Shown here in pieces: positions 1 to 16,528 of a DNA stretch of 16,665 nucleotides (position 1 is the first letter of the stretch; each line of letters starts with the position of its first letter). The notes below the pieces were generated by a model. It did no database searches. It was not told the origin of the DNA and was given only the letters and a program-made list of their open reading frames with translations. This DNA comes from a virus, in UHGV virus genome UHGV-0187499; one strand, written 5' to 3'. A program made the position numbers and the translations under genes.

Positions 1-1227
1 CAGGTGGAAGTTGCGCAACGTGGGCTGACTGAAAAGCGTGCTGCTCTTACGGAGATGCAAAAAAAACTTGATGCCCAGAAAGCCATCAACGAGGAATTAC
101 AAGCAAAACGCGATAAATTGTTGTCTGCTAAAGGTGAAAAAACGAAAGAACGAGCGTTTAGCGACCAGCTGCGACATGTAAAACATAATCTTGCCATTGA
201 CGGAAAAACAGTGCTGGATAATGGCGCTGAAGTTAATTATGTCACGTCCGGCAGTGACAATTTCGTTACGATAGTAGCACCTGAAGGTAAATTCAGTATT
301 GATGCCAGTGCTGTCAAAGGAGGCAGTTTGGCAGATGCTGCAACCAAATTACTTAAAGCCTACCGAGAGCATAACGCAGATAAATATAAAGTTGATGTGT
401 TACCAGGCCAGCAGGAAGACCCCGAACCACCACAGACAGACCCCGAGACGAACCCAGTATCACAACCAGAGAGCCAGGATGTAGGTAAATACCACTATGC
501 ACTTCAATCTCGCCCGGCTGGTGTTGGTGCTGTGCCGGATGGAAATAAAGCCGTGCTTGATCGTCCTGACCAGGCTGATCAGTATTACGAATATGCTCGT
601 CACGGTATCATTACGTATGACCGTAAACTGACAGATGAAGAAGTCAGCCAGTACGAGTTGCTCTATCTTCCTGATGAAGATGAGCTGAAAGATTTTGCAG
701 GCCAATTGGTTGTGTCCAGCATGTCGAAACATATTGATGGCTATGTAGACCTGTTTGGCAGTGACCTGAAAACATTCAAGGCGCAAGTGAAAATTCTTTT
801 CCGCAAAGCGTTTCCAAACGTGGCGTATCCACTTGGTGATGGGGAGAACCTTTTCATTATGGACGTATATAACGCCCTTCAAAATCATTCAAACGAAGTA
901 ACGCCAGAGCCTGAATTAGCACCTGTAGTTGAGCCAGAATCACACCCACAAACAGCACCAGAGCAACAGCCAACGCCGGAAGACGCTGAAGAAGCGGCAA
1001 CTGAAGCTGATCAGGAAGCAGATAAAGCGTTGGAGTACCTTAAATCCGTCCCGGTGCAGTTTACATCTCGCGATCTGACGGTAATCAGTGCCGAACTTGA
1101 CCATGTGCAGGAAGCTGCAAACGCTCTTATCAGTGCTGGTCGATACGACGAGAACGAATCAACGGTTGGCGCAGCAGTTGACTACCTGATCAACATTCTG
1201 GCTGAAATTCAGCAGGGAGGTGCTTAA
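1..1227 (+). CDS. Hypothetical phage protein, 5'-truncated at the window edge; N-terminal coiled coil and two acidic Pro/Glu/Gln-rich linkers; possibly a virion or head-internal protein
   Basis: Open frame runs from base 1 (ORF track starts at GTG 4) to TAA 1225-1227. Coiled-coil-like N-terminus (EKRAALTEMQKKLDAQKAINEELQAKRDKL). Linkers PEPPQTDPETNPVSQPESQ and PEPELAPVVEPESHPQTAPEQQPTPEDAEEAATEADQEA. Stop overlaps the next start (TAATG). No family recognised. Confidence 0.55.
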   Translation, partial: QVEVAQRGLTEKRAALTEMQKKLDAQKAINEELQAKRDKLLSAKGEKTKERAFSDQLRHVKHNLAIDGKTVLDNGAEVNYVTSGSDNFVTIVAPEGKFSIDASAVKGGSLADAATKLLKAYREHNADKYKVDVLPGQQEDPEPPQTDPETNPVSQPESQDVGKYHYALQSRPAGVGAVPDGNKAVLDRPDQADQYYEYARHGIITYDRKLTDEEVSQYELLYLPDEDELKDFAGQLVVSSMSKHIDGYVDLFGSDLKTFKAQVKILFRKAFPNVAYPLGDGENLFIMDVYNALQNHSNEVTPEPELAPVVEPESHPQTAPEQQPTPEDAEEAATEADQEADKALEYLKSVPVQFTSRDLTVISAELDHVQEAANALISAGRYDENESTVGAAVDYLINILAEIQQGGA

Positions 1228-1601
1228 TGACTATCTCTGTTTTAGACCGTCTGAAATTGGGTAAAGAGCTATCAGATTTAATGCAGGCGCAGAAAACCGC
1301 GCCAGTATTACAACGCGTCGCCATTGGTAAGCAGATTGTTGATCTGATGCTTAAACTGGGGTTGGGTACTGCCGCTCAACCGATGTCGGAACCGCAACCA
1401 CAACCACAGTCTGATCCTGTTGCAGATGAAGTTCCTAAGATAGTGACTGACTTCCTGGGCGGCGTGTTCACAAAGTCCACACAAATGGAATTTATTGATG
1501 CGCTGCGTGGGATCTCAAACTATGTTGGCGAGTTCCTTACGTTGGAGCAGGCTAAAGAACAGACCATAAGCTGGGTGAAAGCCAACGGTTATGCCGGGTA
1601 A
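1227..1601 (+). CDS. Hypothetical small protein (124 aa), translationally coupled to the upstream gene
   Basis: ATG 1227 overlaps the upstream TAA (TAATG). Contains a PQPQPQ linker. Same strand and operon context as its neighbours. Confidence 0.55.
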   Translation: MTISVLDRLKLGKELSDLMQAQKTAPVLQRVAIGKQIVDLMLKLGLGTAAQPMSEPQPQPQSDPVADEVPKIVTDFLGGVFTKSTQMEFIDALRGISNYVGEFLTLEQAKEQTISWVKANGYAG

Positions 1602-1604
1602 TCA

Positions 1605-1626
1605 AAAGGGGGCGAAATGCCCCTTT
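1605..1626 (+). terminator. GC-rich hairpin just after the 1227-1601 stop; possible weak terminator, attenuator or RNA stability element
   Basis: AAAGGGGGC-GAAAT-GCCCCTTT, about 8 bp stem with a 5-nt loop, followed by a pyrimidine-rich tract (CACTTCTCTGTTCTC) rather than a clean U-run. Confidence 0.3.
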
Positions 1627-1695
1627 CACTTCTCTGTTCTCACATAAATCACACTCTTTTTACACTCACAGCTTTCTCTATAGTTGGAGTGTATT

Positions 1696-3081
1696 TTGAA
1701 CAAATCAGTTACTTCTGCGCTTTCCGAGGCCGCAGATATTAACAGCGTCATTGCTCTGGTTTCTTCATTAGAGAGGAAAGAAACACGCCTGGGGCGAAGT
1801 AGCTACGTTGTCACCAGCAAAGGTGCAGAGGTAAAGACGGCTTTTAAGGTCGTTGATGCCAGCAGTCTGATCATTTCGAACAACCTTGACGGTATGATTA
1901 ACCCGGCCTTCCCGGAAGAACTCCAACCACGAGATCGTACCCGGCTATCCAGCAAACTCCAGGTTAACCGTATTGCCTCCAATTTACGCCCGGCACAATT
2001 AACGGATTCCGGTATGAGCAGCCACGGAGCGCCGATAGTTGGTCCGGACAACGTTGTTGAATCCGGCAACGGAAGGAGTATGGGTATCTGGCGTGCCTAT
2101 GAGCAAGGACAGGCGGATGAGTATCGCCAGTACCTGATCGACCATGCGAAAGAGTTTGGTCTGAATCCTGACGAAATTTCGCAAATGTCTATGCCCGTAC
2201 TAGTGCGAGAAAGACTCACAGATGTAGACCGCGCTCAATTTGCCCGCGATTCAAACATTAGCGATCTGCAAGAGATGGCAGCAAGTGAAAAAGCGTATGC
2301 GGATGCGCAATTTCTCACTGAGAGCGTCATGGCGCTATTTAATCCTTCAGATGATGGAAATCTGCTGGCGCGGTCCAATGATGCGTTTATTCGTGCGTTT
2401 TTGCGCGAAATTGGCGATACAGCGACGGCAGGCTTGCTTACTGCCGATGGGCGTCCCACGAAACAGCTTATCGATCGCATCCAGAATGCAATTTTTGCCA
2501 AAGCGTACAAGGATGAAAGGCTTGTTCGGCTAGTGTCGGAAGAGCCAGATCCGGAAATGCGTAATATCCTGACCGCATTAAATACGGCAGCCAGCGATTT
2601 TGCGCAAATGCAGTCGCTGTCTGGCGACGCTCACCATGACGCAGTAACAGGCTTAGTGGACGGTATAGAGCAGGTTAATGGCCTGGATAAACAGGCTATT
2701 GCAGCGCTACAGGAAGCAATTAACCTTGTTCGTGAAGCAAAAGATAACGGTCAGGCAGTAGAAGAGGTGATCGCACAGCGTGGATTGTTTGGAGATAGCA
2801 CTCCGGAAGCAGAAGCGCTTGCTCTGTTTATTGTTGCCAACAACCGAAGCGCTAAGCGAATGGGGGCCGCTTTCAAGAAACTGGCGCAAAAAATTAACGA
2901 TGAACTTATTCACCAACAACAAGCGTTAGGCGATATGTTCGGCGGCGGAGATGTCGATCTGCGTAGCATTTTATCTGCCGTTTCTGATGAAATTGAGGGT
3001 GAATTTGGCGAAGGGAAAGGTCTGAACTTTGCTATGTTTGAAAATTCTACAGTTCTAAATAATTGCAGTATGGAAAACTAA
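1696..3081 (+). CDS. Hypothetical phage protein (about 461 aa); acidic, Gly-rich C-terminus; candidate head or internal protein
   Basis: ORF track 1684-3081. Preferred start is TTG 1696, with GGAG at 1686-1689 six nt upstream; TTG 1684 is an alternative. No Walker A, so not a terminase large subunit. Sits directly upstream of the portal-like gene. Confidence 0.55.
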   Translation: MNKSVTSALSEAADINSVIALVSSLERKETRLGRSSYVVTSKGAEVKTAFKVVDASSLIISNNLDGMINPAFPEELQPRDRTRLSSKLQVNRIASNLRPAQLTDSGMSSHGAPIVGPDNVVESGNGRSMGIWRAYEQGQADEYRQYLIDHAKEFGLNPDEISQMSMPVLVRERLTDVDRAQFARDSNISDLQEMAASEKAYADAQFLTESVMALFNPSDDGNLLARSNDAFIRAFLREIGDTATAGLLTADGRPTKQLIDRIQNAIFAKAYKDERLVRLVSEEPDPEMRNILTALNTAASDFAQMQSLSGDAHHDAVTGLVDGIEQVNGLDKQAIAALQEAINLVREAKDNGQAVEEVIAQRGLFGDSTPEAEALALFIVANNRSAKRMGAAFKKLAQKINDELIHQQQALGDMFGGGDVDLRSILSAVSDEIEGEFGEGKGLNFAMFENSTVLNNCSMEN

Positions 3082-3145
3082 GCCAACCGCTGAAATCACA
3101 TACTGATTATGCTGCCGCAAAACTGGAAACAATTTGCGGTGATTC

Positions 3146-4828: not shown

Positions 4829-4841
4829 CCGGAGGGAAATA

Positions 4842-5840: not shown

Positions 5841-5868
5841 CCGCTGAATGAAGTTAAATTTCTAACAT

Positions 5869-6040
5869 AGTGTATTTATATACACTGTTGATCCTGTCCG
5901 ATGTGATCGAGTAGGATCGCGGTCACTGCTCCGGTAGCGATTGCCAAAAAAAGCAAAAGCCGCTGAGAAGCGGCTTTTGGGTGTATAAATCCACTGGCAT
6001 AGATTTATACGGTAGATAGATTTTTTCACGGAACTATCTG
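5869..6040 (+). promoter_or_regulatory. Dyad-rich, GATC-dense control region upstream of the HTH protein gene
   Basis: Inverted repeat AGTGTA-N6-TACACT (5869-5886). Three GATC sites within 29 bp (5890-5893, 5905-5908, 5915-5918), inside the dyad GATCCT...AGGATC. 9-bp inverted repeat GTATAAATC (5983-5991) / GATTTATAC (6002-6010). Inverted repeat AGATAG (6014-6019) / CTATCT (6034-6039) directly abutting GTG 6041. Confidence 0.35.
5955..5978. terminator. Rho-independent terminator closing the head-gene operon; possibly bidirectional
   Basis: Stem GCCGCT / AGCGGC with a GAGA loop, flanked by an A-tract upstream (AAAAAAAGCAAAA) and TTTT downstream, so it could terminate in both directions. Confidence 0.55.
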
Positions 6041-7003
6041 GTGAATATTTTAAATTCAATTTCAGTAACTTTCAACACTTCTGAGTATAAAAACAACACT
6101 GAATACCACAAAAAAATCAAAGGTCATCAGTTGAGTTTTTTTGCTCGTCATAGCGGTTTTCTTTCCCCTTCACATAGCGCCATTATTGCCGAGTTCGCCA
6201 ACCTGGCAGGAGCTACCGATGAATACATGATCCGTCGCTCATATGCTGATATGTCCGAGATTACAGGACGCAGTATTTCTACTGTGCGCCGGGCATTTGC
6301 TGAAGCGACGAAGTGCGGAATGCTTGTTAAGCAACATCAGGTAGCGAATAACAATGCTCAGGTGTGTAACGTATACCGGTTTACAACACAATTTCTCCAC
6401 TTCATTCATGTAGCAATGGAGATAGGGGGTAAGCAGGGCATCAAATTTGCGAACGCCACAAAACTGGTTAAGCAGTTGATTTCAAAGGTTCGGTATTTTT
6501 TTGAAACTGGGAACCCCCTGTTCAAATTGAACAAGTCCCCCCATGTTCAAAATGAACAGCCAATAGAAAATAAGAGTCACTCTATAGCCAAAAGAAGAGA
6601 AAGATCATGCGCGGTTCAGCCAAAGGCTTCACCAGCGGATAGTTCTCAAGCGGATAATGGGATGCTGGATAAAAAACCAGTAATCAGGGAAGAACATACC
6701 AACCACTGCCTGGCGGCGGCAAAAGCGAGAGCTGCAAAGCGTCGTTCAGACGAGGGGCACGCAAAACGGCAGGCTCTGTATCGTACCGCTGAAAAGCTGG
6801 CAAAAAAATTTGCATGGATACGTAGTGCCGCTACCGCAGTGAATAAGCCTAAACAATCCAGTGCCCTGGATTTCTCAATGGATTATTCTGGCTCCCAGGG
6901 GTGTGCAACCATTGGTGAAGCCTTTGACCTGATGAAACAGCGTGGCTATCGGTCTGAATTTGACCGGGAGGATTGGTCAATCCCTGCGGGATTTAGGGGA
7001 TGA
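6041..7003 (+). CDS. HTH DNA-binding protein; candidate replication initiator or regulator; start codon uncertain
   Basis: HTH-like segment MSEITGRSISTVRRAFAEATKCGMLVKQ and a basic C-terminal region (KRRERS..., KARAAKRRSDEGHAKRQ). The first 80 nt of the maximal ORF are AT-rich and may be leader. Alternative in-frame starts are TTG 6131 (AAAGG seven nt upstream) and ATG 6227, which is preceded by an AGGAG-driven 3-codon mini-ORF whose TGA overlaps it. Stop is TGA 7001-7003. Confidence 0.5.
   Translation: MNILNSISVTFNTSEYKNNTEYHKKIKGHQLSFFARHSGFLSPSHSAIIAEFANLAGATDEYMIRRSYADMSEITGRSISTVRRAFAEATKCGMLVKQHQVANNNAQVCNVYRFTTQFLHFIHVAMEIGGKQGIKFANATKLVKQLISKVRYFFETGNPLFKLNKSPHVQNEQPIENKSHSIAKRRERSCAVQPKASPADSSQADNGMLDKKPVIREEHTNHCLAAAKARAAKRRSDEGHAKRQALYRTAEKLAKKFAWIRSAATAVNKPKQSSALDFSMDYSGSQGCATIGEAFDLMKQRGYRSEFDREDWSIPAGFRG
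6514..6559. repeat. Two tandem palindromic iteron-like repeats embedded in the HTH protein coding sequence; origin- or operator-like
   Basis: CCCCC-TGTTCA-AAT-TGAACA (6514-6533) and CCCCCCA-TGTTCA-AAA-TGAACA (6536-6558), period about 25 bp, followed by a purine-rich A-tract region (6562-6606). Confidence 0.6.
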
Positions 7004-7046
7004 CCTGTGTGTCTACAAAACATCCCAATGATCGGAAAATGCTCGC

Positions 7047-7112
7047 TCGATGATTTGTATTAGAAAATTAATTTGCTGTTTCTAAATCGGAATGTATGAT
7101 CTGCATCATCGA
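7047..7112 (+). promoter_or_regulatory. Candidate sigma70 promoter bracketed by an 8-bp inverted repeat
   Basis: TTGCTG (7073-7078), 16-nt spacer, TATGAT (7095-7100). Flanked by TCGATGAT (7047-7054) and ATCATCGA (7105-7112). Inner dyad TTAGAAA (7060-7066) / TTTCTAA (7079-7085) overlaps the -35. Confidence 0.3.
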
Positions 7113-7141
7113 CTGAAGTCATCCATTGCTGAAATTTTTAG

Positions 7142-7170
7142 TTGATCTTCCATGTTTTCAGGCTTATATT
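7142..7170 (+). promoter_or_regulatory. Candidate sigma70 promoter for the antisense-RNA / antirepressor operon
   Basis: TTGATC (7142-7147), 17-nt spacer, TATATT (7165-7170); the predicted start site would lie about 25 nt upstream of target copy 1. Confidence 0.3.
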
Positions 7171-7200
7171 CATGCCGTCGTAGCAAATTCTGCGACCAGG

Positions 7201-7222
7201 TTTGACAGCCTGAATGATTGTG
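7201..7222 (+). promoter_or_regulatory. Upstream copy of the antisense target pair (a1/b1-like): TTTGACAGC ... TGATTGTG
   Basis: TTTGACAGC at 7201-7209 and TGATTGTG at 7215-7222. This is a direct repeat of the pair at 7370-7406 and is complementary to CTGTCAA and CACAATC in the candidate RNA. Confidence 0.4.
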
Positions 7223-7290
7223 CGGACAACCGCAGATTTCCGATATTGCGGTATTTTTGTGTCCGTTAAACCGCGTTACGCCCAAATTAT

Positions 7291-7364
7291 GGTGGGGCGT
7301 GATGGGGAGGCTTCGGCCTGCTGGTTTCACAATCGCCAGTCTGTCAACCCTGTCACGTCCTGCC
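7291..7364 (+). ncRNA. Candidate c4-like antisense regulatory RNA, about 74 nt, structured
   Basis: Hand fold: a 12-bp closing stem (7291-7302 with 7353-7364, including three G-U pairs); a C(UUCG)G tetraloop hairpin at 7308-7319; a second hairpin (stem 7320-7324 / 7336-7340) presenting CACAATC (7328-7334) in its loop; and single-stranded CTGTCAA (7341-7347). Both boxes are complementary to both target copies. Confidence 0.4.
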
Positions 7365-7369
7365 ACCTG

Positions 7370-7409
7370 TTTGACAGCGGGTAGCAGGTTGTTAAACCTG
7401 ATTGTGAGG
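7370..7409 (+). promoter_or_regulatory. Downstream copy of the antisense target pair (a2/b2-like), overlapping the RBS of the 74-codon ORF
   Basis: TTTGACAGC at 7370-7378. TGATTGTG at 7399-7406 overlaps the Shine-Dalgarno GTGAGG (7404-7409), eight nt before ATG 7418. Confidence 0.4.
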
Positions 7410-7417
7410 CCGTAACT

Positions 7418-7642
7418 ATGGTTAACGCCAATCCTTGCTCACGTCCAGAATTCATCTGGCGTTTCCACTCCCTGCAAAAACACTGCGATCACTTCGCAAT
7501 TGCCGCAACCGAAAAAGAAGCCCGTTCTCTGATCCCTGATCAGTATGGTGTTCTTACTGGTCGTTTCTCTACTTCCCCACAACCAAACACTAATCCTTGG
7601 TATCGCAATATTACCAATCCCGGCATTGCGGAGGCACATTGA
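7418..7642 (+). CDS. Small leader ORF (74 aa), translationally coupled to the downstream antirepressor-like gene; icd-like by position
   Basis: GAGG eight nt upstream of ATG 7418. Stop TGA 7640-7642 overlaps ATG 7642 of the next gene. Its RBS is covered by the b2-like box. Confidence 0.5.
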   Translation: MVNANPCSRPEFIWRFHSLQKHCDHFAIAATEKEARSLIPDQYGVLTGRFSTSPQPNTNPWYRNITNPGIAEAH

Positions 7643-8349
7643 TGGATATCTGCATTCTTGAAAAGCCATCAATGACCAGCATTGAGATCGCGGAACTGGT
7701 GGGAAAACGTCATGACAATGTGAAGCGTACCATTGAAACATTAGCCGAATCCGGCGTTATTGTTCGTCCTCAAATTGAGGATGAACCAAAAATAGATGTA
7801 ATGGGGCGTTCTCGATTAATTCAGGTGTTTCGATTTAGCGACGAGCAAGGCAAACGAGACAGTATCATTGTAGTCGCACAGCTTTGTCCTGAGTTTACTG
7901 CCCGGCTTGTGGACCGCTGGCGCGAACTGGAAGAACAAGTACGCCAGCCGTTGACCGAAATAGAGATGATCGCCGCAATGGCTGCAAATGCAGTTCAGCA
8001 GCAAAAGCGGCTTCATGTTGTTGAGTCAAAGGTTAGCCAGGTGGTAGAAACCGTCGAGCAAATCAAGAAAGGCAATATTCCGGAAGGCTACATTGGCTAC
8101 CGCCAGCTGGCGGCAAAATGCGGCCTGACCGAAGCCAAATGTCGCAACCTGGTTAACGCTTTCCGGATTCCCACCGATACACATGAGTTTTTAACTCCAG
8201 AGGGGGTATTGTCGCGTCGTTCCATCGTAGCCTTATCTCCCTTCATGAATGCTTTTAACCGGATGATGTCGGAGGCTGAACACCGAGGAAAACGCTGGTA
8301 TCACCCCAAAATGGGGCAATTCCAGGTGATCGGTTGGGGAGGTGAATGA
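7642..8349 (+). CDS. Rha-family phage regulatory / antirepressor-like protein (235 aa)
   Basis: N-terminal motif MTSIEIAELVGKRHDNVKRTIETL matches the Rha-family signature. GGAGG at 7629-7633, eight nt before ATG 7642. The ORF-track start at 7597 is an upstream in-frame extension that overlaps the leader ORF. Confidence 0.75.
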   Translation: MDICILEKPSMTSIEIAELVGKRHDNVKRTIETLAESGVIVRPQIEDEPKIDVMGRSRLIQVFRFSDEQGKRDSIIVVAQLCPEFTARLVDRWRELEEQVRQPLTEIEMIAAMAANAVQQQKRLHVVESKVSQVVETVEQIKKGNIPEGYIGYRQLAAKCGLTEAKCRNLVNAFRIPTDTHEFLTPEGVLSRRSIVALSPFMNAFNRMMSEAEHRGKRWYHPKMGQFQVIGWGGE

Positions 8350-8546
8350 TGGACATCATGCAGGCGGTAAAAAAAATCAGGGAAGAACAGGCTGAAGTGT
8401 GCCGCCGTAAAGCATGGAGTGTTGGTGTATGGGCCTGGCCTGATAATTACTCTACTACCGGATGGTTTTGTATTAATGGACTCCAGATCCGGGAAGTTTA
8501 TTTATCGACGGCTGATATAGTCGGTAATGATTGGATCGTGACTTGA
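8346..8546 (+). CDS. Small hypothetical protein (65-66 aa) coupled to the Rha gene; Trp-rich; possible small accessory or anti-defence protein
   Basis: ATG 8346 or 8349 overlaps the Rha TGA (8347-8349). GGGGAGG at 8336-8342 favours ATG 8349. Contains KAWSVGVWAW and a C-terminal ...DIVGNDWIVT. Confidence 0.5.
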   Translation: MMDIMQAVKKIREEQAEVCRRKAWSVGVWAWPDNYSTTGWFCINGLQIREVYLSTADIVGNDWIVT

Positions 8547-8554
8547 AGCGTGAT

Positions 8555-8579
8555 GCCCCGGCCTGGCCGGGGCTTTTTT
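8555..8579 (+). terminator. Rho-independent terminator after the Rha operon
   Basis: GCCCCGG-CCTGG-CCGGGGC followed by TTTTTT (8574-8579). Confidence 0.65.
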
Positions 8580-9064
8580 CATGCCTCATTAGTTGAGGTT
8601 GCTGCGCCTCCGACTGGTAACAGAGCGGTATTGCGTGGTTCGCCAGCAGGCCAGCGATAGCCAGACACTCTTGATGTTGGGAATGCGCGAATATTAACCG
8701 CATCCCCCTGGTTCCCACCCAGGACAAGCAGATCGCCATTGGCGCGGCGTCCGACAACGAAGCCTACGTGCCCACCGCCTACGCGGGTAAATACAACGAT
8801 ACATCCGTATGCCGGTGTATCTAATTTCTCGCCCCAATCCAGATAGGATTTTGCCGACTCAAATCTTGTTGAGCGGATGCCTACACGTTCCAGCATTGCA
8901 CCGACAAATGCTGCGCACCACGGCGTTTCATCGTCTTTAATTCCGCCGCGCTTGATGTCGCGCCAGAACTGAACGATTTCAGGGTTGTGTTTAGCGCCTT
9001 TTATTTCAGTCAGGCCAATGTGCTTACGGGCTTCAATTAGCCAGCGAGGTTCAATGTTTGCCAT
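8579..9064 (-). CDS. Cys/His peptidase-like protein (CHAP / NlpC-P60-like; resembles the TIGR02594 family as recalled), putative peptidoglycan hydrolase
   Basis: Minus-strand ORF of 161 aa with a strong RBS (GGGAGA five nt before ATG, read on the minus strand). Cys in PWCAAFVG and His in GGGHVGFVVG have the spacing of papain-like cell-wall peptidases. It is the only clear minus-strand gene in the window. Confidence 0.7.
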   Translation of the reverse strand: MANIEPRWLIEARKHIGLTEIKGAKHNPEIVQFWRDIKRGGIKDDETPWCAAFVGAMLERVGIRSTRFESAKSYLDWGEKLDTPAYGCIVVFTRVGGGHVGFVVGRRANGDLLVLGGNQGDAVNIRAFPTSRVSGYRWPAGEPRNTALLPVGGAATSTNEA

Positions 9065-9119
9065 ATTTTTCTCCCGGTCATGGGTTAATAAGTAGGCAAA
9101 CTATGGGGAGTATGTGATT

Positions 9120-9147
9120 TTGACGGTAGTATCTTCCCCGTGAAAAT
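9120..9147 (+). promoter_or_regulatory. Candidate promoter for the giant methyltransferase-helicase gene
   Basis: TTGACG (9120-9125), 16-nt spacer, GAAAAT (9142-9147). If this -10 is real, GTG 9140 cannot be the start codon, which supports TTG 9215. Confidence 0.3.
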
Positions 9148-9214
9148 AACATTCTCCATACCCTCTCAACCGTACCGCATAGCGGATTTTTTACGGTTTA
9201 GAGGGGGTAATCCT

Positions 9215-12200
9215 TTGGATAAACTACTTCATTCAATCAGTGAAGCCTCCAGCTTAGGCGAACTGATTGAGATTGTTAGTCGGTTGCATAAATTACGTGC
9301 TGTTGCGACCTTTGGCGTTAAGAAAGTCGATGGTGTCAGCATTCAAAAAACACGGCGGGCAGCAAACAACGCCGCAGTAGAGCTTCTTAATTCCCTTCCG
9401 CCCGGCTTCGATGGGGCGAAATTAACTGACGAACAGCGTCAGATTCTTGCCGGGTATACCGGTGAAGGCGGCCTGACAGATGGTGAGGGCAGCCAATACG
9501 AATACTACACGCCACAGTTTATGGCTGAAGGTATATGGGATCTGTTTGCTGACTACGGTATTGATGGCGGGCACGTACTGGAACCATCAGCGGGCACAGG
9601 TATTTTCCAGGAGACAAAACGACAGGGCATGATAATGACCAGCGCCGAACTGTCTCCGATTTCCGGTCGAATAAACCAGCTTTTGCACCCGGAAGACGAT
9701 GTGAATATCGGGGCGTTTGAGGCGCTGGCGGCGAAAGACGCAACGTATGATCACGCTGTTGGTAACGTACCGTTTGGTGAAGGGCGTTCCGGTGTCGCCG
9801 GGCTTGATCCGGCATATGCAAACGAGAAGAACGTTGGCAATTACTTTGTGCTGCGCACTATCGACAAGGTTAAGCCAGGTGGGCTTATCGTATTGGTGGT
9901 GCCGAATGGCATGACCGATGGTACGAAATATAAAAAATTGCGCGATAAAGTCAGCCGTAAAGCGGAATTTTTGGGCGCACATCGTATGCCTTCCGGTACG
10001 TTCAGCGAATCCGGTACAGATACCGTGGTGGACGTATGGGTATTGCGTAAACACCCGGAAACCTTCCTGGAGATGATCCCCGACACGGATGATTCAACAC
10101 TCAAATCGGCAAACGTCCTTTGGGATGCCTTCCTCAAAGGAAAATGGTTTACAACCGAAGGGAAGCGATTTGTTTACGGCGACATGGAACGTACCAGCTT
10201 CCGCAATACCCTGGTGGTGAAAAAGGACGGTCGTGTATCCAATGAGTCGATGAAAACCGCGCTATCTCGTCGCTTTGATAGTCGCATTAATTGGGATTTG
10301 CTCGGCGTAACTACTCAGGCATGGCAGGGCGCGAAAGTGGGCGATAAACGCCTAGTAGGCGGCATCTGGCATGAGTTTGATGGCCTGAAATGGGTCAAGG
10401 ACACGACAACCAAATCCTCCGCGCTTGATGTAAGTCGATATGGTGTTTCGACATTCGGTGATCTGCAAACAACGTTCCAATCAACAAACGGCATTCTGGC
10501 TCTGTCATGGGGGCAGATATCCGCGATCGCTTCCGACTATCCATCGGTTATCAGTGATGAAGTAGCGGCAATGATTCGCTTTGCTGGGAAACAACGCGAA
10601 AAAGACCGTGAGCGCATTATGCGCGGTGCGCTGATCGGGCAACTTATCAATAAAGCGCTGGATAAGCGTAACCTTGGTGAAAACGTCGATGATGAACTGG
10701 CTGATGCCGCACGTCTGACGGCTGCCGAAGTTGCTAAATATGGCCCACCACACGCCATTAAGCTAAACGACATTACCGAAGCGGGCGCGAAGAACTGGCT
10801 GACATTCACCGGGAACGTCAATCAGGACGGTGAAGCATCCGATCTGCTGTCCGGACGGCTTGATGTTAGCAAAGGGGCTGCTGGTATTGATTTCACTCGT
10901 CCGGAACAGGTTGTGACACACCTTTTCAGCGATGTTGCCCTTAATCCTATCAATCTTGATGACTTCCGCGAGGCGTTTAAAGGCGAACTGCCAGAAGACG
11001 ACGATCAAGCACTGGAATACCTGGCGAAATTCGACGATATCGCTATTGATGGATATGGTTGCCTGCTACCGATGGGCCGTGCCACTAGCGGTGATATTAA
11101 ATCAAAAGTGGCACTGCTGGTGGGCTGGCGAGACGCGTCCACAGGAGAGCGGAAGGCCAACTTTGAGCGCCAGCTTTCAAAAATCGAAGAGAAACGCACG
11201 TTTACACCGCTGAACAAAGTCACGGTAAACCTTAACGCACGGTGGTTGGATCGCCGCCTGATAAAAGAGTTCCTGGCAGAGCAGGGCTATGACGAGTTTA
11301 AGTATACAGAACCCGACCTTAAGGTTGAGAACGGCATTCTGGTATCCCCGGACGATTACGAAGGTAAGGACGGGGTATTTACTGGCTACCAGCTACGAAC
11401 CGTAAACGGCAAAAACGGGAACGAGTTCAAGAAAGCGAATAACAAAGATGGCTTCCTGAATCAGCTTGAGAACTACCTGAACGGTGTTAAACCGCGCGGA
11501 CAGAACGCTAACGAGTACCTGGACAAAATCGCCCAGCTTGAGACGAGTTTTAACGACTGGTTAAGAACTCACCCGCAGGCAGACCAGATCGCCCGCGATT
11601 ATAACGACGCCTTTAACGGTTATATTCCATTTACCCATTCAGACGCACCCCTGGGGCTTGAAGGCATCAGCGGGAAACGTATACCGCTTTCTTACCAGAA
11701 CGAAGAAGTTCGTCGTCTGTCGGAAGATGGGCGCGGTATTATGGGATTCGGAACTGGTTTGGGTAAAACGACGACCGCGCTGGCACTGGAAGCCTATAAC
11801 TTTGAAACCGGGCGAACCAAACGTACCTGTATCGTTGTTCCAAAGGCCGTATACCAGAACTGGTATCACGAGGCACAGAGCTTCTACAGTGCAGATGCCT
11901 TCGCCAATATGATGTTTATCGGTCTGGACGAAGTGCGCGATGGTGACGGAAATATTCAGACTGCCCCAGTGCTCGACCAGGACGGCACCCCGCGACTTGA
12001 TAACGACGGCAATCCGATCACCCGTAATGTTGTTAAAGAATCCGCCAGTGCCGTTATCGCTCAACGCATGAACATGATCCCATCGTCGAACTGGCGAACG
12101 GTCATCATGACAAAAGAGCAGTTCGCATCTATCCCGTTGCGCGATGAAACCATCGGAGAAAACTCACAGCAGGCTGTCTTTAATGCCGCCGAAATGGGGC

Positions 12201-15200
12201 GTCTTGACCTGGCGTCAGGCAAGCACCGTGATGCGCAGAAGAAGAACAAGATTAAGGACCAGGCCGCGAATACCGGTACAGCGAAGAAGCAGAATATCCC
12301 GTACTTTGAGGATATGAACTTCGATAGCGTAATTGCCGACGAAGGGCACAACTACCGCAACTCCTTTGGTGCCGGGCGTGAAGCGGGGCAACTGGCATAT
12401 TTACCTAATCCGGCGGTATCCAAAATGGCCCGTGACATGGCTGTAAAAGCTGCGTACATGATGAAACGTCACAATGGGCGCGGCGTCGTAATGCTGACAG
12501 CAACTCCGCTGGTTAATAGCCCTATTGACGCCTTCAACATGCTGTCAACGGTGATCCCTCAGCACGAGTGGATGCACATGGGAATTATTACCCCTGACGA
12601 CTTTGTGCGAGTGTTCGGTAAAACAGCCACTGTTCAGGTCCAGAAAATTTCTGGCGAAGTGGAAGAGAAACAGGGGCTGGTGGGCTTCCAGAACCTTGAT
12701 GGTCTGCGTGGCATTTTCCACCGCTGGACAACGCTTAAAACGGCTTCCGATGTTGGTGCAACGGTAAAAATCCCGGATATCGTCGAAAACACCTTGCAGA
12801 TCCCAATGACTCCAGAGCAGCAAGCAGCTTATGAAGAGCTTCGTAAACGCGCGCAGGAGTTAAGTAGTAAAGATGCGCTGACGGTCGATGAAAACGGGCA
12901 TATCACAAACGAAAAACCGGATGATTTCATCTTCTCCATCATCCGCGACATGGATAAGGTTGCTATAGATCCTGATCTGTATGCCAGTGCGATTACATTC
13001 CAGTTCCCCGTTGAGCTTGCAGACAAGGTAAAAGCTATTGCTGATGCCCTGCCAAAAGTAGCTGGCGGTAAAGTGGCAGATGATGCAGACGAGGCCGAAG
13101 AAGATGGCGCTGGTGGGCTGGTCAGTACGCGTACCAGCAAGGTAGTGAAGACCACCTTTAGCGAACATCCGTCGCATGTTGAAATACGTGCTGGCATTGA
13201 ACTGGAAGCTGAAATACTGAAGGCCATTGCGGCTGCCGGTATTGATATGCAGCAGGTATCACACCCCATCCCGCCGAAGTATGCCGCGCTGATCGAAAAC
13301 CTTCGTGAAGGTCTGAAGAACGGTAAACAAATCGTCTTCATTGATGAAAAAGCCCAGCACCAGAAGCTGCGCCGTATTATTGCCAGTGCACTGCAAATGC
13401 CGGAGCAGGAGATAGGCATTATCAATGCGACGACAGTTAGCCAGGCTGGCGGCGTCAAGCTGAAGAAGGTGAATAAGCCGACTGAACCTACGCCAAACAA
13501 AGACGGTGAATACAAAGAAGGCGCATGGGAAACCTACTACAGTAAACTGGCCCAATATGAGGATTATCTCTCTGCTAAAAATGATGCTGGCCTTGAGGGG
13601 ATGGAAGGTATTGCTGCCGACTATAACGAAGGGCGCACGCGAATCATTATCTGTAACAAGAAAGCCGAAGTAGGTATCAACCTGCATATTGGAACGACCG
13701 ATATTCACCACCTGACACTACCCTGGACTCCTGCCAGTATCGACCAACGAAATGGGCGAGGTGCGCGCGTAGGTTCTCCGCAAGAGAAGGTTAATGTTCA
13801 CTATTATTGTGGCAAAGGCACATTCGATGACTTCCGTCTGGATACGCTTAAACGTAAGAAAGACTGGATCAAGATGGTGATGACCTCCGATATGTCAGAG
13901 ATCGCCAATGGTGATGCGGATGACGCTGATGAACGCGCCATTATGCTGGCGGCAAATCCGGAAGAACGACGCGCAATTATGGCTCGTCAGTCGAAAGAAC
14001 GTGAGGAACGCCTGCGACTTAAAGCGCAACGCGAAGCCAATAATGCTCTCGATAACTACCTGAAAGCGGCGAATGCTGCCGGGAAGGATATCGGCATGAT
14101 GGAGGCAGAACTGAAAAGCGCGATGGAGCAGGTGCAACGATACCAGAGTGATCTGGATGGACTGATTAAGAGCGGCATCAACAAAAACGGACAGAAATAT
14201 ACGCTTTCAGCACTAAGCAAAGCTAAAAAAAGTGTGCGTGAATTGCGATTTGCAATCACCAGGGCGAAGGACGCGGATACTGTTATGAAACGCTCTCGTG
14301 GTGATGTGGAGCGTGCTATTAAGTCTGGTGTGCTGGATATCAGTATCGATGTTATTCAGAACCCGCAGGAGTATATTCGCACTGGCAAGAACATCCTGTT
14401 GCATAAAGGTAGTTACTACCGTGCAGTCATTAATGCTGAATACGAGACAACGGCGATTGTACGCGTGACACAAATTGAGAGCGAAAAAGCGCAATTCACC
14501 TGCCGCGTCGCCTGGCTGGATAGAGCAAGTCGCCACTCTCGTTCTCCTGGCTCAACCATGACATTACCGTTTGACTCAGTGGTTGAAGCGGTAACATTTG
14601 AAGAGGGGGTGGCTGAATCACGAGAAATAGCGGCACGTGGTGTTCAAAGCCACCAGCTTTCAACCTCTCTTTCTCGCGATCAATTCTATGACGCTATTCG
14701 TAGCGGTGTTATGCGGGTAACTGGGAAAGATCGTGGCGGTTGGCAAGGAGCACCGGATGTAAACTATTGGGCTTATCGTAACGCCAATGGTCAGATTCAA
14801 ATGGCCTTTACCTATGGCGGGATGATTGGTAAAAAAATTAGCGCATCTGGAAGTGACGAGATAGCACCTGAACAATGGATTTATCCTGATGTAAACGACG
14901 AAGCATTAAAACGCGAAGTCGCGAAAATCCAGACAGGTGATAACCCACTTCGTATTTCAGAGGCAGAAGGTTTTCTCCGTGCATTGTTTGGCTTCGATTA
15001 TGAGCAAGGTATGGAGGCATGGGGCGCTCAGGCCACTATGGATGATGTGGTCAGGGCGTTCGATGGCTGGATGGCAGGGCGCGATCTCTCCGGGCGTTCA
15101 CTTGAAAAAGTGACTCAGGAAGATGTCCGCAGCTTGTTCCGCAAGCCAAATGGAGAAGGCCTGGAAACGTACTGGCGAGGCGTGCTTTCTTTCCGCGATT

Positions 15201-16057
15201 TCCAGGGGCGCATGAAAGCCTTCACCAATGGTTCGGAGATTTCGCAGATGTTCGAACAACTGCGAACGTCCAAAATCACAACCAAAATTGAGAAAACACG
15301 CATGGCGCTAAATGCATGGCGTGATGCGCTGTTTGATCAGTACAAAATGCAAAGTGATGCAGATGGTTGGGCGTCACTTGCCTCGTTGGCAGATCAGTCA
15401 GTTTACAGTGCGCAACTAAGCATTTCTAATGCCGATAATCCGCTTGAAACATCTGCAACAGTCTGGATTAAAGCGGGGGCGTTAATTCATGCATTTGAGG
15501 ATAAAAGCATTACCCGTGATGATTTCGCAGATGCAGATAGCTTGAATCGTCTTGTCGGGATGGCTATACGCCATGCTAACGCCTTAAAAGCGGGCAGGTA
15601 TGTGGAAGAGTTGCCTGATGCTCTGAAATCTGCAACGTGGGATGACTTTGTGTCGCTTAAAAATGGTGGCGCTACGGAGTCAGAGATTGCTGAACGTCTT
15701 GCGGCGGCTAAGACTGAACGGGAAGAACAGGCTGATGCAGCAGAGATCAAGGCTGACGAGGCAGCAAATGATGATTACATTATCGTGGTAAACGATAAGC
15801 CTATTCGCGCCAAAGCACGTGTACGCGGGCGCTGGTGGAGCGTAAGTGAAGACGCTGGTGCTGTTTATCTCATTGCCGATCAGCCCGGTTCCTCGACAAT
15901 ACGGAACGCCAAGGACGCGATTAAGAAGATTGGCGGGCGTTTCTGGAATTTTGAAGCAAACCCGGTTGCTGATGTGAACTTTGACCGTCCGGCATGGATG
16001 GTATCTACTCGTTACTCGGTAGATGAACTACGTAAAATAATCGCCGATGCGGCTTAA
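9215..16057 (+). CDS. darB: DarB-like giant anti-restriction protein: N6-adenine methyltransferase fused to an SF2 helicase with a long C-terminal extension (about 2280 aa)
   Basis: Methyltransferase motifs: YYTP (9503-9514), EPSAGTG (9581-9601), GNVPFG (9761-9778). Helicase motifs: GFGTGLGKTTTA (11744-11779), DEGH (12338-12349), TATP (12497-12508), QRNGRGARVG (13745-13774). Preferred start is TTG 9215 with GAGGGGG seven nt upstream; the ORF-track start GTG 9140 has no RBS and rare codons (ATA three times, AGA, CGG, GGG). Stop is TAA 16055-16057. Confidence 0.85.
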   Translation: MDKLLHSISEASSLGELIEIVSRLHKLRAVATFGVKKVDGVSIQKTRRAANNAAVELLNSLPPGFDGAKLTDEQRQILAGYTGEGGLTDGEGSQYEYYTPQFMAEGIWDLFADYGIDGGHVLEPSAGTGIFQETKRQGMIMTSAELSPISGRINQLLHPEDDVNIGAFEALAAKDATYDHAVGNVPFGEGRSGVAGLDPAYANEKNVGNYFVLRTIDKVKPGGLIVLVVPNGMTDGTKYKKLRDKVSRKAEFLGAHRMPSGTFSESGTDTVVDVWVLRKHPETFLEMIPDTDDSTLKSANVLWDAFLKGKWFTTEGKRFVYGDMERTSFRNTLVVKKDGRVSNESMKTALSRRFDSRINWDLLGVTTQAWQGAKVGDKRLVGGIWHEFDGLKWVKDTTTKSSALDVSRYGVSTFGDLQTTFQSTNGILALSWGQISAIASDYPSVISDEVAAMIRFAGKQREKDRERIMRGALIGQLINKALDKRNLGENVDDELADAARLTAAEVAKYGPPHAIKLNDITEAGAKNWLTFTGNVNQDGEASDLLSGRLDVSKGAAGIDFTRPEQVVTHLFSDVALNPINLDDFREAFKGELPEDDDQALEYLAKFDDIAIDGYGCLLPMGRATSGDIKSKVALLVGWRDASTGERKANFERQLSKIEEKRTFTPLNKVTVNLNARWLDRRLIKEFLAEQGYDEFKYTEPDLKVENGILVSPDDYEGKDGVFTGYQLRTVNGKNGNEFKKANNKDGFLNQLENYLNGVKPRGQNANEYLDKIAQLETSFNDWLRTHPQADQIARDYNDAFNGYIPFTHSDAPLGLEGISGKRIPLSYQNEEVRRLSEDGRGIMGFGTGLGKTTTALALEAYNFETGRTKRTCIVVPKAVYQNWYHEAQSFYSADAFANMMFIGLDEVRDGDGNIQTAPVLDQDGTPRLDNDGNPITRNVVKESASAVIAQRMNMIPSSNWRTVIMTKEQFASIPLRDETIGENSQQAVFNAAEMGRLDLASGKHRDAQKKNKIKDQAANTGTAKKQNIPYFEDMNFDSVIADEGHNYRNSFGAGREAGQLAYLPNPAVSKMARDMAVKAAYMMKRHNGRGVVMLTATPLVNSPIDAFNMLSTVIPQHEWMHMGIITPDDFVRVFGKTATVQVQKISGEVEEKQGLVGFQNLDGLRGIFHRWTTLKTASDVGATVKIPDIVENTLQIPMTPEQQAAYEELRKRAQELSSKDALTVDENGHITNEKPDDFIFSIIRDMDKVAIDPDLYASAITFQFPVELADKVKAIADALPKVAGGKVADDADEAEEDGAGGLVSTRTSKVVKTTFSEHPSHVEIRAGIELEAEILKAIAAAGIDMQQVSHPIPPKYAALIENLREGLKNGKQIVFIDEKAQHQKLRRIIASALQMPEQEIGIINATTVSQAGGVKLKKVNKPTEPTPNKDGEYKEGAWETYYSKLAQYEDYLSAKNDAGLEGMEGIAADYNEGRTRIIICNKKAEVGINLHIGTTDIHHLTLPWTPASIDQRNGRGARVGSPQEKVNVHYYCGKGTFDDFRLDTLKRKKDWIKMVMTSDMSEIANGDADDADERAIMLAANPEERRAIMARQSKEREERLRLKAQREANNALDNYLKAANAAGKDIGMMEAELKSAMEQVQRYQSDLDGLIKSGINKNGQKYTLSALSKAKKSVRELRFAITRAKDADTVMKRSRGDVERAIKSGVLDISIDVIQNPQEYIRTGKNILLHKGSYYRAVINAEYETTAIVRVTQIESEKAQFTCRVAWLDRASRHSRSPGSTMTLPFDSVVEAVTFEEGVAESREIAARGVQSHQLSTSLSRDQFYDAIRSGVMRVTGKDRGGWQGAPDVNYWAYRNANGQIQMAFTYGGMIGKKISASGSDEIAPEQWIYPDVNDEALKREVAKIQTGDNPLRISEAEGFLRALFGFDYEQGMEAWGAQATMDDVVRAFDGWMAGRDLSGRSLEKVTQEDVRSLFRKPNGEGLETYWRGVLSFRDFQGRMKAFTNGSEISQMFEQLRTSKITTKIEKTRMALNAWRDALFDQYKMQSDADGWASLASLADQSVYSAQLSISNADNPLETSATVWIKAGALIHAFEDKSITRDDFADADSLNRLVGMAIRHANALKAGRYVEELPDALKSATWDDFVSLKNGGATESEIAERLAAAKTEREEQADAAEIKADEAANDDYIIVVNDKPIRAKARVRGRWWSVSEDAGAVYLIADQPGSSTIRNAKDAIKKIGGRFWNFEANPVADVNFDRPAWMVSTRYSVDELRKIIADAA

Positions 16058-16093: not shown

Positions 16094-16528
16094 ATGACGA
16101 CATTAATTGATACAGTTAAACCGACAGAATCTTACCTTGAAGAAATTTTGCCGCAGGCGCTCAATGGCAGGAGTGAAGACGAGTTCCTGACAGTATATCT
16201 CGCTGGGATGGTTGAAAGACTAAAGAAAGATCCACAGCTTTATCACCTTTATGGTCCGTGGTGGCCTGCGCTTAAAACGATATTGCTGGAGCGCGGCGAC
16301 ACATCATTTGGACAGGTTGTAGATAGCGATGTGGCAGAGATCTACAGAATGAGTCGCCCGGCGCTTACGGTTTTAGCTGGACATCTGTATTCGAGCGATC
16401 GCCTGGAAAATGACGCGGTATACAATCCCGTTCATGCTCTGGAAGTCGCGGCTTATGCCGATGATACAGAGCCATATGTATACACAAGCTACGATGAGTC
16501 TATAGAGAAATATCGAATTATGGGGTAG
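16094..16528 (+). CDS. Hypothetical protein (144 aa) co-transcribed downstream of darB
   Basis: ORF with ATG 16094 and TAG 16526-16528, same strand, 36 nt after the darB stop. No family recognised. Confidence 0.55.
   Translation: MTTLIDTVKPTESYLEEILPQALNGRSEDEFLTVYLAGMVERLKKDPQLYHLYGPWWPALKTILLERGDTSFGQVVDSDVAEIYRMSRPALTVLAGHLYSSDRLENDAVYNPVHALEVAAYADDTEPYVYTSYDESIEKYRIMG

What the first reader, a model, noticed from the sequence alone, without database searches (positions are those of the whole stretch)
9215..16057. Giant single-chain methyltransferase-helicase fusion with DarB-like architecture and no nuclease or partner restriction gene
One ORF of about 6.9 kb encodes, from N to C: (i) an N6-adenine methyltransferase core with motif order X (YYTP), I (EPSAGTG), IV (GNVPFG, an NPPF variant), i.e. 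gamma-class-like as in HsdM; (ii) about 530 aa of unknown function that could hold target recognition; (iii) an SF2 translocase with Walker A, DEGH, TATP and motif VI, with about 400 aa inserted between motifs III and VI; (iv) about 750 aa of C-terminal extension including a coiled-coil stretch. I see no nuclease motif and no restriction partner nearby. Size, domain order and the phage morphogenesis context match what is established for P1 DarB, a virion-packaged protein that protects incoming DNA from type I restriction. The alternative is an orphan epigenetic or defence enzyme. The 530-aa linker and the C-terminal third are uncharacterised territory in either case.
Basis: partly seen in the sequence, partly recalled or inferred. 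Interest (0 to 1): 0.8.

Follow-up and report, generated by a model that had tools for sequence, protein, structure and literature searches.

The report
DarB anti-restriction gene of D6-like phage
The giant gene is the ordinary, already annotated counterpart of phage P1's DarB, a virion-carried methyltransferase-helicase that shields injected phage DNA from type I restriction, here in a D6-like E. coli phage-plasmid.

Summary
One gene (TTG 9215 to stop 16057, 2280 aa) encodes an N6-adenine methyltransferase, a 520-aa linker, an SNF2-type ATPase and a 720-aa C-terminal extension.

It is not an orphan. It is 88.5% identical to orf15 of phage D6, which GenBank annotates as "similar to P1 gene darB". 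It is 98% identical to proteins already in NCBI, and 40% identical to P1 DarB end to end. The window is colinear with D6: darA, ddrA, ddrB, portal, protease, repL, c4/icd/ant, darB, ulx.

No nuclease was found by Pfam, PADLOC, NCBIfam or PDB profiles, nor by fold search of two confident AlphaFold models. The linker was not fold-searched on its own.

The catalytic residues of both enzymes are invariant in 21 homologues down to 35% identity. This suggests the mechanism is enzymatic, but it stays unproven, as it does for P1.

One mildly new point: darB, above all its C-terminal third, is the divergence hot spot of an otherwise 97-100% D6-identical backbone. The window carries a minority allele that moves by recombination.

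Verdict: already known, low interest.

The parts
9215..16057 (+). darB orthologue (D6 type), 2280 aa, TTG start, stop codon included
9215..9304 (+). Residues 1-30. Positional equivalent of the P1 DarB capsid-targeting sequence; predicted helical.
   Evidence: P1 data: PMC9024508. Alignment. AF2 helices 2-9 and 14-25. Only 8 of 30 residues are identical to P1 (my count on the alignment).
9305..9499 (+). Residues 31-95. LPD36-like helical domain with its GxG(G/A/S) motif (G83-E-G85-G86).
   Evidence: Y81, G83, G85 and G86 are invariant. Domain definition from PMC5512222.
9500..10114 (+). Residues 96-300. Gamma-class N6-adenine methyltransferase core: TP motif 9503-9514, motif I 9581-9601, motif IV (NVPF) 9761-9778.
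10115..11674 (+). Residues 301-820. Conserved linker of unknown fold class: small beta elements, then a helical bundle. Contains a conserved RATSGD motif at 622-627.
   Evidence: No Pfam or PDB match. Many invariant residues but no invariant Asp, His or Lys before residue 786. AF2 pLDDT mostly 70-95.
11675..12814 (+). Residues 821-1200. SNF2-type ATPase lobe 1: Walker A 11750-11770, DEGH 12338-12349, motif III 12497-12508.
12815..13594 (+). Residues 1201-1460. Insert between the two ATPase lobes. Partly the SNF2 helical insert; includes an acidic, low-conservation loop around 1285-1305.
   Evidence: PMC5512222.
13595..13894 (+). Residues 1461-1560. ATPase lobe 2 core with motif VI QRNGRGAR (13745-13762). 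The most conserved part of the protein.
13895..14344 (+). Residues 1561-1710. Long antiparallel helical hairpins (coiled coil).
14345..15784 (+). Residues 1711-2190. Fast-evolving C-terminal region: a small Tudor/SH3-like barrel (about 1720-1793), a mixed segment, then a helical domain (about 1896-2187).
   Evidence: Identity 58-80% to D6 and 16-26% to the P1 type. Found only in DarB-length proteins.
15785..16054 (+). Residues 2191-2280. Small alpha/beta C-terminal domain, re-conserved (99% to D6; K2237 and W2261 invariant).
16094..16528 (+). ulx homologue. In P1, Ulx aids DarB incorporation into the head.
   Evidence: 48% identity to P1 Ulx. phrog_1629, 'Ulx-like anti-restriction'. Adjacency kept in a Pseudoalteromonas element. 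Role in P1: PMC9024508.
4..1227 (+). darA homologue; the window cuts off its 5' end.
1227..1601 (+). ddrA homologue, 100% identical to D6 orf26.
1684..3081 (+). ddrB homologue, 465 aa, about half the length of P1 DdrB.
9155..9210 (+). Predicted hairpin in the darB leader that pairs the Shine-Dalgarno sequence (GAGGGGG, 9201-9207) with CCCUCUC.
   Evidence: Free energy -29.6 kcal/mol, z -3.8. 98% conserved in D6. Absent from the P1 leader. Function is inferred only.

Best explanation
The gene is the DarB orthologue of a D6-like, P1-family phage-plasmid of E. coli or its relatives.

Proposed mechanism, with the basis of each step:
- By analogy with P1, the protein is made late in infection. It is loaded into the prohead through its N-terminal segment, helped by DarA, Hdf, DdrA, DdrB and Ulx. 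It is then ejected with the DNA.
- Once in the cell it acts in cis on the entering DNA to prevent cleavage by type I (EcoKI/EcoBI-like) restriction enzymes.
- My committed mechanism: the SNF2 motor moves the protein along the incoming duplex. The fused adenine methyltransferase modifies the DNA and/or the moving complex blocks or displaces type I complexes before they can cut.

Shown here: orthology, domain architecture, the Dar gene context, absence of a detectable nuclease, and strict conservation of both catalytic centres.

Inferred from P1 experiments: packaging, ejection and anti-restriction.

Hypothesis only (Iyer et al. 2017, and my inference from motif conservation): translocation-coupled methylation or displacement.
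For: Orthology:
- 85.3% nt and 88.5% aa identity to D6 orf15, annotated 'defense against restriction, similar to P1 darB'.
- 40% identity to P1 DarB over the whole length.
- Full-length match to phrog_1685, and a match to phrog_10089 'DarB-like antirestriction'.

Context:
- Gene order is colinear with D6: darA-ddrA-ddrB-prt-pro-repL-c4-icd-ant-darB-ulx.
- Ulx lies downstream. The darB-ulx pair is kept even in a Pseudoalteromonas element with 38% DarB identity.

Fold:

Enzymatic mechanism:
- SAM-binding and catalytic residues are invariant: E123, P124, G129, E145, F168, E169, N184, P186, F187.
- ATPase residues are invariant: G846-K851, D1042, E1043, H1045, A1096-P1098, Q1511-R1518.
- Both sets hold in 21 homologues at 35-80% identity.

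No nuclease.

P1 biology:
- DarB is a head protein at about 40 copies per virion, and its N-terminal 30 residues suffice for capsid targeting (PMC9024508).
- Dar acts only in cis (PMC12707154).
- A darB deletion makes P1 sensitive to EcoB and EcoK (PMC11109961).

Need for protection:
- EcoKI (2) and EcoBI (4) sites in the window are not depleted against about 2 expected, so the phage does need protection (the expectation is my arithmetic).
Against: - Nothing has been tested experimentally for the D6 type, as far as the held literature shows.
- The N-terminal 30 residues are only 27% identical to P1, and P1 residues 6-10, implicated in packaging, are not conserved.
- DdrB is half the P1 size, and hdf lies outside the window.
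- Motif IV is NVPF rather than NPP(Y/F).
- The mechanism of P1 DarB itself is undefined. Plasmid-based anti-restriction assays of darB were shown to be an artefact of Chi and EcoKI sites (PMC11109961).
- The specificity for some type I families, but not others, is not explained by non-specific methylation.
Confidence: 0.85

Rival explanations
1. The protein is DarB-like but works as a passive shield. It is an abundant internal head protein that coats or occludes the entering DNA, and the methyltransferase and ATPase activities are dispensable relics.
For: - The classical hypothesis for Dar is physical obstruction, because it acts only in cis (PMC12707154).
- There are about 40 copies per virion (PMC9024508).
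- More than half of the protein (linker and C-terminal third) has no recognisable enzymatic fold.
Against: Every catalytic and cofactor-binding residue of both enzymes is invariant down to 35% identity, while the non-enzymatic C-terminus drifts to 16-26%. Relic domains would not be the most conserved parts.
Confidence: 0.1
2. It is an orphan epigenetic enzyme. In this reading it is a translocating adenine methyltransferase that marks the phage-plasmid's own DNA during replication or lysogeny, for regulation or self-identification, and is not an injected protein.
For: - The methyltransferase centre is intact.
- No cognate nuclease was found.
- The element lives as a plasmid.
Against: - It is orthologous to a protein shown to be a P1 head component.
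- It is linked to ulx and to the dar and head genes.
- darB is non-essential for P1 growth (PMC10695390).
Confidence: 0.04
3. It is a prophage-encoded defence or restriction enzyme (Type ISP-like, or a BREX PglX or DISARM-like component) that attacks or excludes foreign DNA.
For: - Weak PADLOC and NCBIfam hits to DrmD, ZorD and DpdE.
Against: - Those hits cover only generic SNF2 motifs and lie far below the family cut-offs (DrmD 47 bits against 610).
- No nuclease family appears in any of 21 homologues, and no nuclease fold was found.
- The domain order is methyltransferase before helicase. By my knowledge of LlaBIII, Type ISP enzymes run nuclease-helicase-methyltransferase-TRD.
- The window holds no pglZ, brxC, drmA or drmB neighbours.
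Confidence: 0.02

Closest known systems
Phage D6 orf15 (ASR76325.1, 'defense against restriction, similar to P1 gene darB')
   Same: - 88.5% aa identity.
- Nearly the same length (2278 vs 2280 aa) and the same TTG start.
- The same flanking genes; the rest of the window is 97-100% identical to D6.
   Different: - Mosaic divergence inside the gene: dS runs from 0.03 to above 2.
- Residues 1800-2100 are only 58-72% identical.
- D6 orf23 and orf24, between ddrB and prt, are missing from the window.
Phage P1 DarB (AAQ13985.1, 2255 aa)
   Same: - End-to-end homology at 40% identity.
- The same domain order and all catalytic motifs.
- ulx immediately downstream, and dar and head genes in the neighbourhood.
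   Different: - The C-terminal 570 residues are 16-26% identical.
- The capsid-targeting residues are not conserved.
- Local gene order differs. In P1, prt-pro are divergent directly upstream and the EcoP1I mod/res genes follow lxc. Here a hydrolase gene and the c4-icd-ant module lie upstream.
Methylase-SWI2/SNF2 dyad of 'polyvalent proteins' (Iyer, Burroughs, Anand, de Souza, Aravind 2017)
   Same: LPD36-like N-terminal domain with its GxG motif, TP motif, gamma-class adenine methyltransferase, and an SNF2-type ATPase with helical inserts.
   Different: - This protein carries only the dyad plus DarB-specific regions, not the many extra effector domains of the larger polyvalent proteins.
- The C-terminal third is confined to DarB-length proteins (39 cluster representatives out of 1.84 billion).
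Type ISP restriction-modification enzymes (LlaGI/LlaBIII) and type I HsdM/HsdR
   Same: An adenine methyltransferase of the same structural class and an SF2 translocase act on the same DNA.
   Different: - No nuclease domain.
- Opposite domain order.
- No recognisable target-recognition domain.
- No R-M gene partners.

Membership tests
P1 DarB family (virion-delivered methyltransferase-SNF2 anti-restriction protein) | Full-length sequence homology to P1 DarB | tested here: met
   BLASTP gives 941 of 2370 identities, E = 0, end to end. tblastn also matches P1 and its relatives.
P1 DarB family (virion-delivered methyltransferase-SNF2 anti-restriction protein) | Domain order: N-terminal helical domain, gamma N6A methyltransferase, linker, SNF2 ATPase, long C-terminal region, about 2200-2300 aa in all | tested here: met
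   Homologues are 2198-2320 aa.
P1 DarB family (virion-delivered methyltransferase-SNF2 anti-restriction protein) | Linkage to ulx and to the other dar genes and head morphogenesis genes | tested here: met
   ulx at 16094-16528. darA, ddrA, ddrB, prt and pro at 4-5840.
P1 DarB family (virion-delivered methyltransferase-SNF2 anti-restriction protein) | N-terminal capsid-targeting sequence (the first 30 residues in P1) | tested here: inconclusive
   The start position and helical character are conserved. Only 8 of 30 residues match P1, and P1 residues 6-10 are not conserved.
P1 DarB family (virion-delivered methyltransferase-SNF2 anti-restriction protein) | Presence in virions and ejection with the DNA | not testable with these tools
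   Needs virion proteomics. Known for P1 only (PMC9024508).
P1 DarB family (virion-delivered methyltransferase-SNF2 anti-restriction protein) | Protection in cis against EcoK/EcoB type I restriction | not testable with these tools
   Needs plating assays. Known for P1 only (PMC11109961, PMC12707154).
Type ISP / type I / type IIG restriction enzymes | Nuclease domain (Mrr, PD-(D/E)xK, HNH) | tested here: not met
   - No such family in Pfam at E up to 10 on the uncharacterised segments, nor in 21 homologues.
- No PDB profile hit.
- No invariant Asp, His or Lys in the linker before residue 786.
- Caveat: the linker was fold-searched only as part of a model dominated by the methyltransferase.
Type ISP / type I / type IIG restriction enzymes | Target recognition domain next to the methyltransferase | tested here: inconclusive
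   Nothing is recognisable by sequence. The linker could not be searched as a separate domain model.
BREX (PglX) / DISARM (DrmMI, DrmD) | Score above the family cut-off, and partner genes (pglZ, brxC / drmA, drmB) nearby | tested here: not met
   DrmD scores 47.1 bits against a cut-off of 610. The hits are restricted to helicase motifs. The window's other genes are all P1/D6 phage genes.
Polyvalent-protein methylase-helicase dyad (Iyer et al. 2017) | LPD36 GxG(G/A/S) motif, TP motif, N-x-P-(Y/F) motif IV, SWI2/SNF2 ATPase | tested here: met
   G83, G85 and G86; T99 and P100; N184, P186 and F187; and the SNF2 motifs are all invariant. Definitions. Motif IV has Val in place of the first Pro.

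The most novel reading that the evidence does not exclude
The fast-evolving C-terminal third of DarB (residues about 1600-2190) may be an exchangeable specificity module. It would decide which host restriction or defence systems are countered, or which capsid partners are used.

Evidence so far:
- In an otherwise 97-100% D6-identical backbone, this segment is 69-81% identical at the nucleotide level.
- The window's allele occurs in only about 6 of 119 D6-like plasmids.
- It is found with a different portal gene in another plasmid, so it moves by recombination.

If true, DarB alleles would be a natural panel for mapping how the protein recognises its targets.
Probability: 0.2. Interest if true: 0.45.

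Novelty: already known. Interest (0 to 1): 0.15.

Why it matters
As a discovery it matters little. The gene is the annotated DarB counterpart of a known phage lineage that is common on E. coli plasmids.

It has some practical value:
- How DarB works is still unknown nearly 40 years after its description.
- The alignment here shows which parts are under the strictest constraint (both catalytic centres, the linker, the last 90 residues) and which part varies (the C-terminal third).
- That suggests mutagenesis and allele-swap experiments in either P1 or D6-like phages.

Tried and rejected
1. A homologue search with the C-terminal 721 aa alone returned only 12 close fragments and was of no use for an alignment. 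The full-length search was used instead.
3. Off-diagonal BLAST hits seemed to show an internal 1-kb repeat in darB. They were matches to the P1 locus stored in the same file, and a self-BLAST of the window shows no repeat.
4. A scan for P1-type late promoters (AAGTGA box plus -10) found only a one-mismatch candidate at 9112, and the sigma-70 scan was no better than chance. I make no promoter claim.
5. hhalign of the family profile against EcoP1I Res found nothing, but a single-sequence template is weak, so this is uninformative.
6. Piya et al. 2017 (PMC6011833), the main paper on Dar assembly, is not held. Its content is cited only through papers that quote it.
7. Positive selection was rejected. 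dN/dS is at most 0.28 in every bin where it could be computed, and dS is saturated in the divergent blocks. The divergence is therefore old and imported, not recent adaptive change.

Full report
**1. What is in the sequence**

The window has one very long + strand ORF, 9140..16057. The real start is almost certainly TTG 9215.
- It follows a GAGGGGG ribosome-binding site by 7 nt.
- The D6 orthologue is annotated from the same TTG, and the upstream GTG 9140 reads CTG in D6.
- At least 90% of 40 homologues begin at the same alignment column.

The product is 2280 aa. Residues counted from 9215: YYTP 97, EPSAGTG 123, GNVPFG 183, GTGLGKT 846, DEGH 1042, TATP 1095, QRNGRG 1511. Each one is also present in P1 DarB.

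Pfam reports SNF2-rel_dom, ResIII and Helicase_C, plus a borderline N6_Mtase.

In 100-codon bins against D6, dN/dS is 0.02-0.28 wherever it could be computed (dS is saturated in two bins). The whole length is a functional coding sequence.

**2. What it is**

- Megablast against phage genomes finds one relative, phage D6, at 85.3% nt identity over the whole gene. The feature there is annotated 'defense against restriction, similar to P1 gene darB'.
- At the protein level it is 88.5% identical to D6 orf15. Across residues 1-1937 it is 43% identical to DarB of P1 and P1-like phages.
- BLASTP against P1 DarB aligns both proteins end to end (941 of 2370 identities).
- PHROGs places it full length in phrog_1685 and also matches 'DarB-like antirestriction'.
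- A protein 98% identical (a cluster of 406 sequences) is already in NCBI as 'DEAD/DEAH box helicase family protein'. The P1-type cluster holds 16,340 sequences.

The window as a whole is colinear with D6:

| Coordinates | Feature |
|---|---|
| 4-1227 | darA (cut at its 5' end) |
| 1227-1601 | ddrA |
| 1684-3081 | ddrB |
| 3146-4828 | portal |
| 4842-5840 | head protease |
| 6041-7003 | repL |
| 7164-7370 | c4 antisense RNA with its a1/b1 targets |
| 7418-7642 | icd |
| to 8349 | an Ant/Roi-like gene |
| 8346-8546 | a small ORF |
| 8579-9064 (minus strand) | a peptidoglycan hydrolase gene |
| 9215-16057 | darB |
| 16094-16528 | ulx |

These assignments rest.

- Ulx is 48% identical to P1 Ulx.
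- The darB-ulx pair persists in a Pseudoalteromonas element whose DarB is only 38% identical.
- The locus sits on plasmids in 99 of 5426 complete E. coli genomes and never on a chromosome. It matches 586 PLSDB plasmids.

The source is therefore a D6-like member of the P1 family of phage-plasmids.

**3. Structure and the nuclease question**

I built two AlphaFold2 models from a 40-sequence family alignment. Both are confident.
- Residues 1-840: mean pLDDT 82.
- Residues 1560-2280: mean pLDDT 87.

The C-terminal model has four parts:
- three long antiparallel helices (about 1582-1703);
- a small beta barrel (about 1720-1793);
- a helical domain (about 1896-2187);
- a small alpha/beta domain (2188-2280).

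No nuclease family appears in any of these searches:
- Pfam on the uncharacterised segments at E up to 10;
- Pfam on 21 diverse full-length homologues;
- PADLOC and NCBIfam;
- a family profile against all PDB sequences.

The linker has many invariant residues (W311, F312, R357, W385, W528, R622-A623-G626, W677, R680 and others). It has no invariant Asp, His or Lys before residue 786, as a PD-(D/E)xK or HNH site would need.

One limit remains. The linker was fold-searched only inside a model dominated by the methyltransferase, so a very divergent fold there cannot be fully excluded.

**4. Conservation pattern and what it implies**

The following residues are invariant in 21 homologues at 35-80% identity:
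- SAM-binding and catalytic residues of the methyltransferase: E123, P124, G129, E145, F168, E169, N184, P186, F187;
- the ATPase motifs: G846-K851, D1042, E1043, H1045, A1096-P1098, Q1511-R1518.

Motif IV is N-V-P-F. From my own knowledge, the Erm and KsgA adenine methyltransferases work with N-I/L-P-Y, so the Val is compatible with activity.

Conservation by region falls in this order: ATPase lobe 2, methyltransferase, ATPase lobe 1, linker, N-terminus, coiled coil, C-terminal third. The C-terminal third is only 16-26% identical between the D6 and P1 types.

An exhaustive HMMER search with the C-terminal 721 aa finds just 39 cluster representatives among 1.84 billion. All are DarB-length proteins or fragments of them.

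Both enzymatic activities are therefore under strong selection. The C-terminal third is family-specific and fast-evolving.

**5. How it most likely works**

Shown for P1:
- DarB is a head protein at about 40 copies per virion.
- Its first 30 residues suffice to target a reporter to the capsid.
- Ulx and DdrB aid its incorporation (PMC9024508; PMC12810830).
- Deleting darB makes P1 sensitive to EcoB and EcoK (PMC11109961).

The biochemical mechanism 'has not been defined' (same paper). Iyer et al. proposed ATP-driven translocation coupled to adenine methylation of the injected DNA (PMC5512222).

I commit to that enzymatic, in-cis model for this orthologue, with displacement or blocking of type I complexes as a variant. 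The reason is that the catalytic centres are the most conserved parts of the protein. Packaging, ejection and anti-restriction are inferred from P1 and are not shown for the D6 type.

Type I sites are not avoided in the window. It has EcoKI 2 and EcoBI 4 against about 2 expected by my arithmetic. That fits reliance on an active counter-measure.

**6. Rivals**

- Passive shielding is possible, but it fits poorly with the invariant active sites.
- An orphan epigenetic role is contradicted by orthology to a virion protein and by linkage to the dar and head genes.
- A defence or restriction role fails its membership tests. There is no nuclease and there are no partner genes. DrmD, ZorD and DpdE hits are confined to generic SNF2 motifs and lie far below cut-off (47 against 610 bits). 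The domain order is opposite to Type ISP enzymes.

**7. The one thing that is a little new**

Against D6, the window is 97-100% identical in 500-nt bins everywhere except two places:
- the ant gene (7501-8000, 86%);
- darB from about 10500 to 16000 (69-88%, with a better-conserved stretch at 13001-14000).

Within darB, dS jumps from 0.03 to above 2 between adjacent blocks. That is the signature of recombination between old alleles.

Plasmid survey:
- The window's C-terminal allele is matched at more than 90% in only 6 of 119 records. The other 113 are 60-80% identical, and the sampled ones are 65-75%.
- The portal-protease segment is at least 95% identical in 103 of the records.
- One plasmid, NZ_CP091837, shares the darB allele (97.8%) but has a portal region only 81% identical.

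The DarB C-terminal third is thus a recombining, polymorphic module. Whether this reflects different restriction targets or different capsid partners is unknown.

**8. Verdict**

The finding is an already known, annotated and common gene. Interest is low. The residual value lies in the conservation map and the allele polymorphism as guides for experiments on the still unknown DarB mechanism.

Noticed in passing
window 10501-16000, compared with 1-10500: darB is the divergence hot spot of a backbone otherwise 97-100% identical to phage D6. Its C-terminal allele is a minority form (about 6 of 119 D6-like plasmids). It also occurs with a different portal gene in NZ_CP091837, so it moves by recombination.
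   Followed up: partly
window 9155-9210: The darB leader folds into a stable hairpin (-29.6 kcal/mol, z -3.8) that pairs the Shine-Dalgarno GAGGGGG with an upstream CCCUCUC. Together with the TTG start this suggests restrained or regulated translation. It is 98% conserved in D6 and absent from the P1 leader.
   Followed up: partly
window 5226, 11116, 12676, 13109, 14650(-), 15831: There are six Chi sites (GCTGGTGG) against 0.41 expected, five of them on the + strand and five inside darB. P1 darB is reported to carry 11 Chi sites, which cause plasmid-induced restriction alleviation artefacts (PMC11109961).
   Followed up: partly
window 7164-7216 and 7285-7370: Rfam finds the c4 antisense RNA (68 bits) and its a1/b1 target element (54 bits) upstream of icd-ant. 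This is a P1 immI-type immunity module placed directly after repL.
   Followed up: no
window 7501-8000: The Ant/Roi-like anti-repressor gene is the only other segment clearly diverged from D6 (86% nt identity, with neighbours at 95-97%).
   Followed up: no
window 1684-3081: The DdrB homologue is 465 aa and matches only the first 443 of 995 positions of phrog_2299. D6-type phages therefore carry about half of the P1 DdrB (108.7 kDa in P1).
   Followed up: no
window 3082-3145: D6 has two small genes (orf24, orf23) between ddrB and the portal gene. The window has only a 64-nt gap there.
   Followed up: no
window 8555-8573 and 8579-9064 (-): A perfect 8-bp GC hairpin with T-runs on both sides looks like a bidirectional terminator. 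It separates the ant-orf17 unit from a minus-strand TIGR02594-family peptidoglycan hydrolase gene that diverges from darB.
   Followed up: no
window 4842-5840: The P1 Pro (head processing protease) homologue falls in phrog_1801, which PHROGs labels 'tail fiber protein'. This looks like a mislabel in the library.
   Followed up: no
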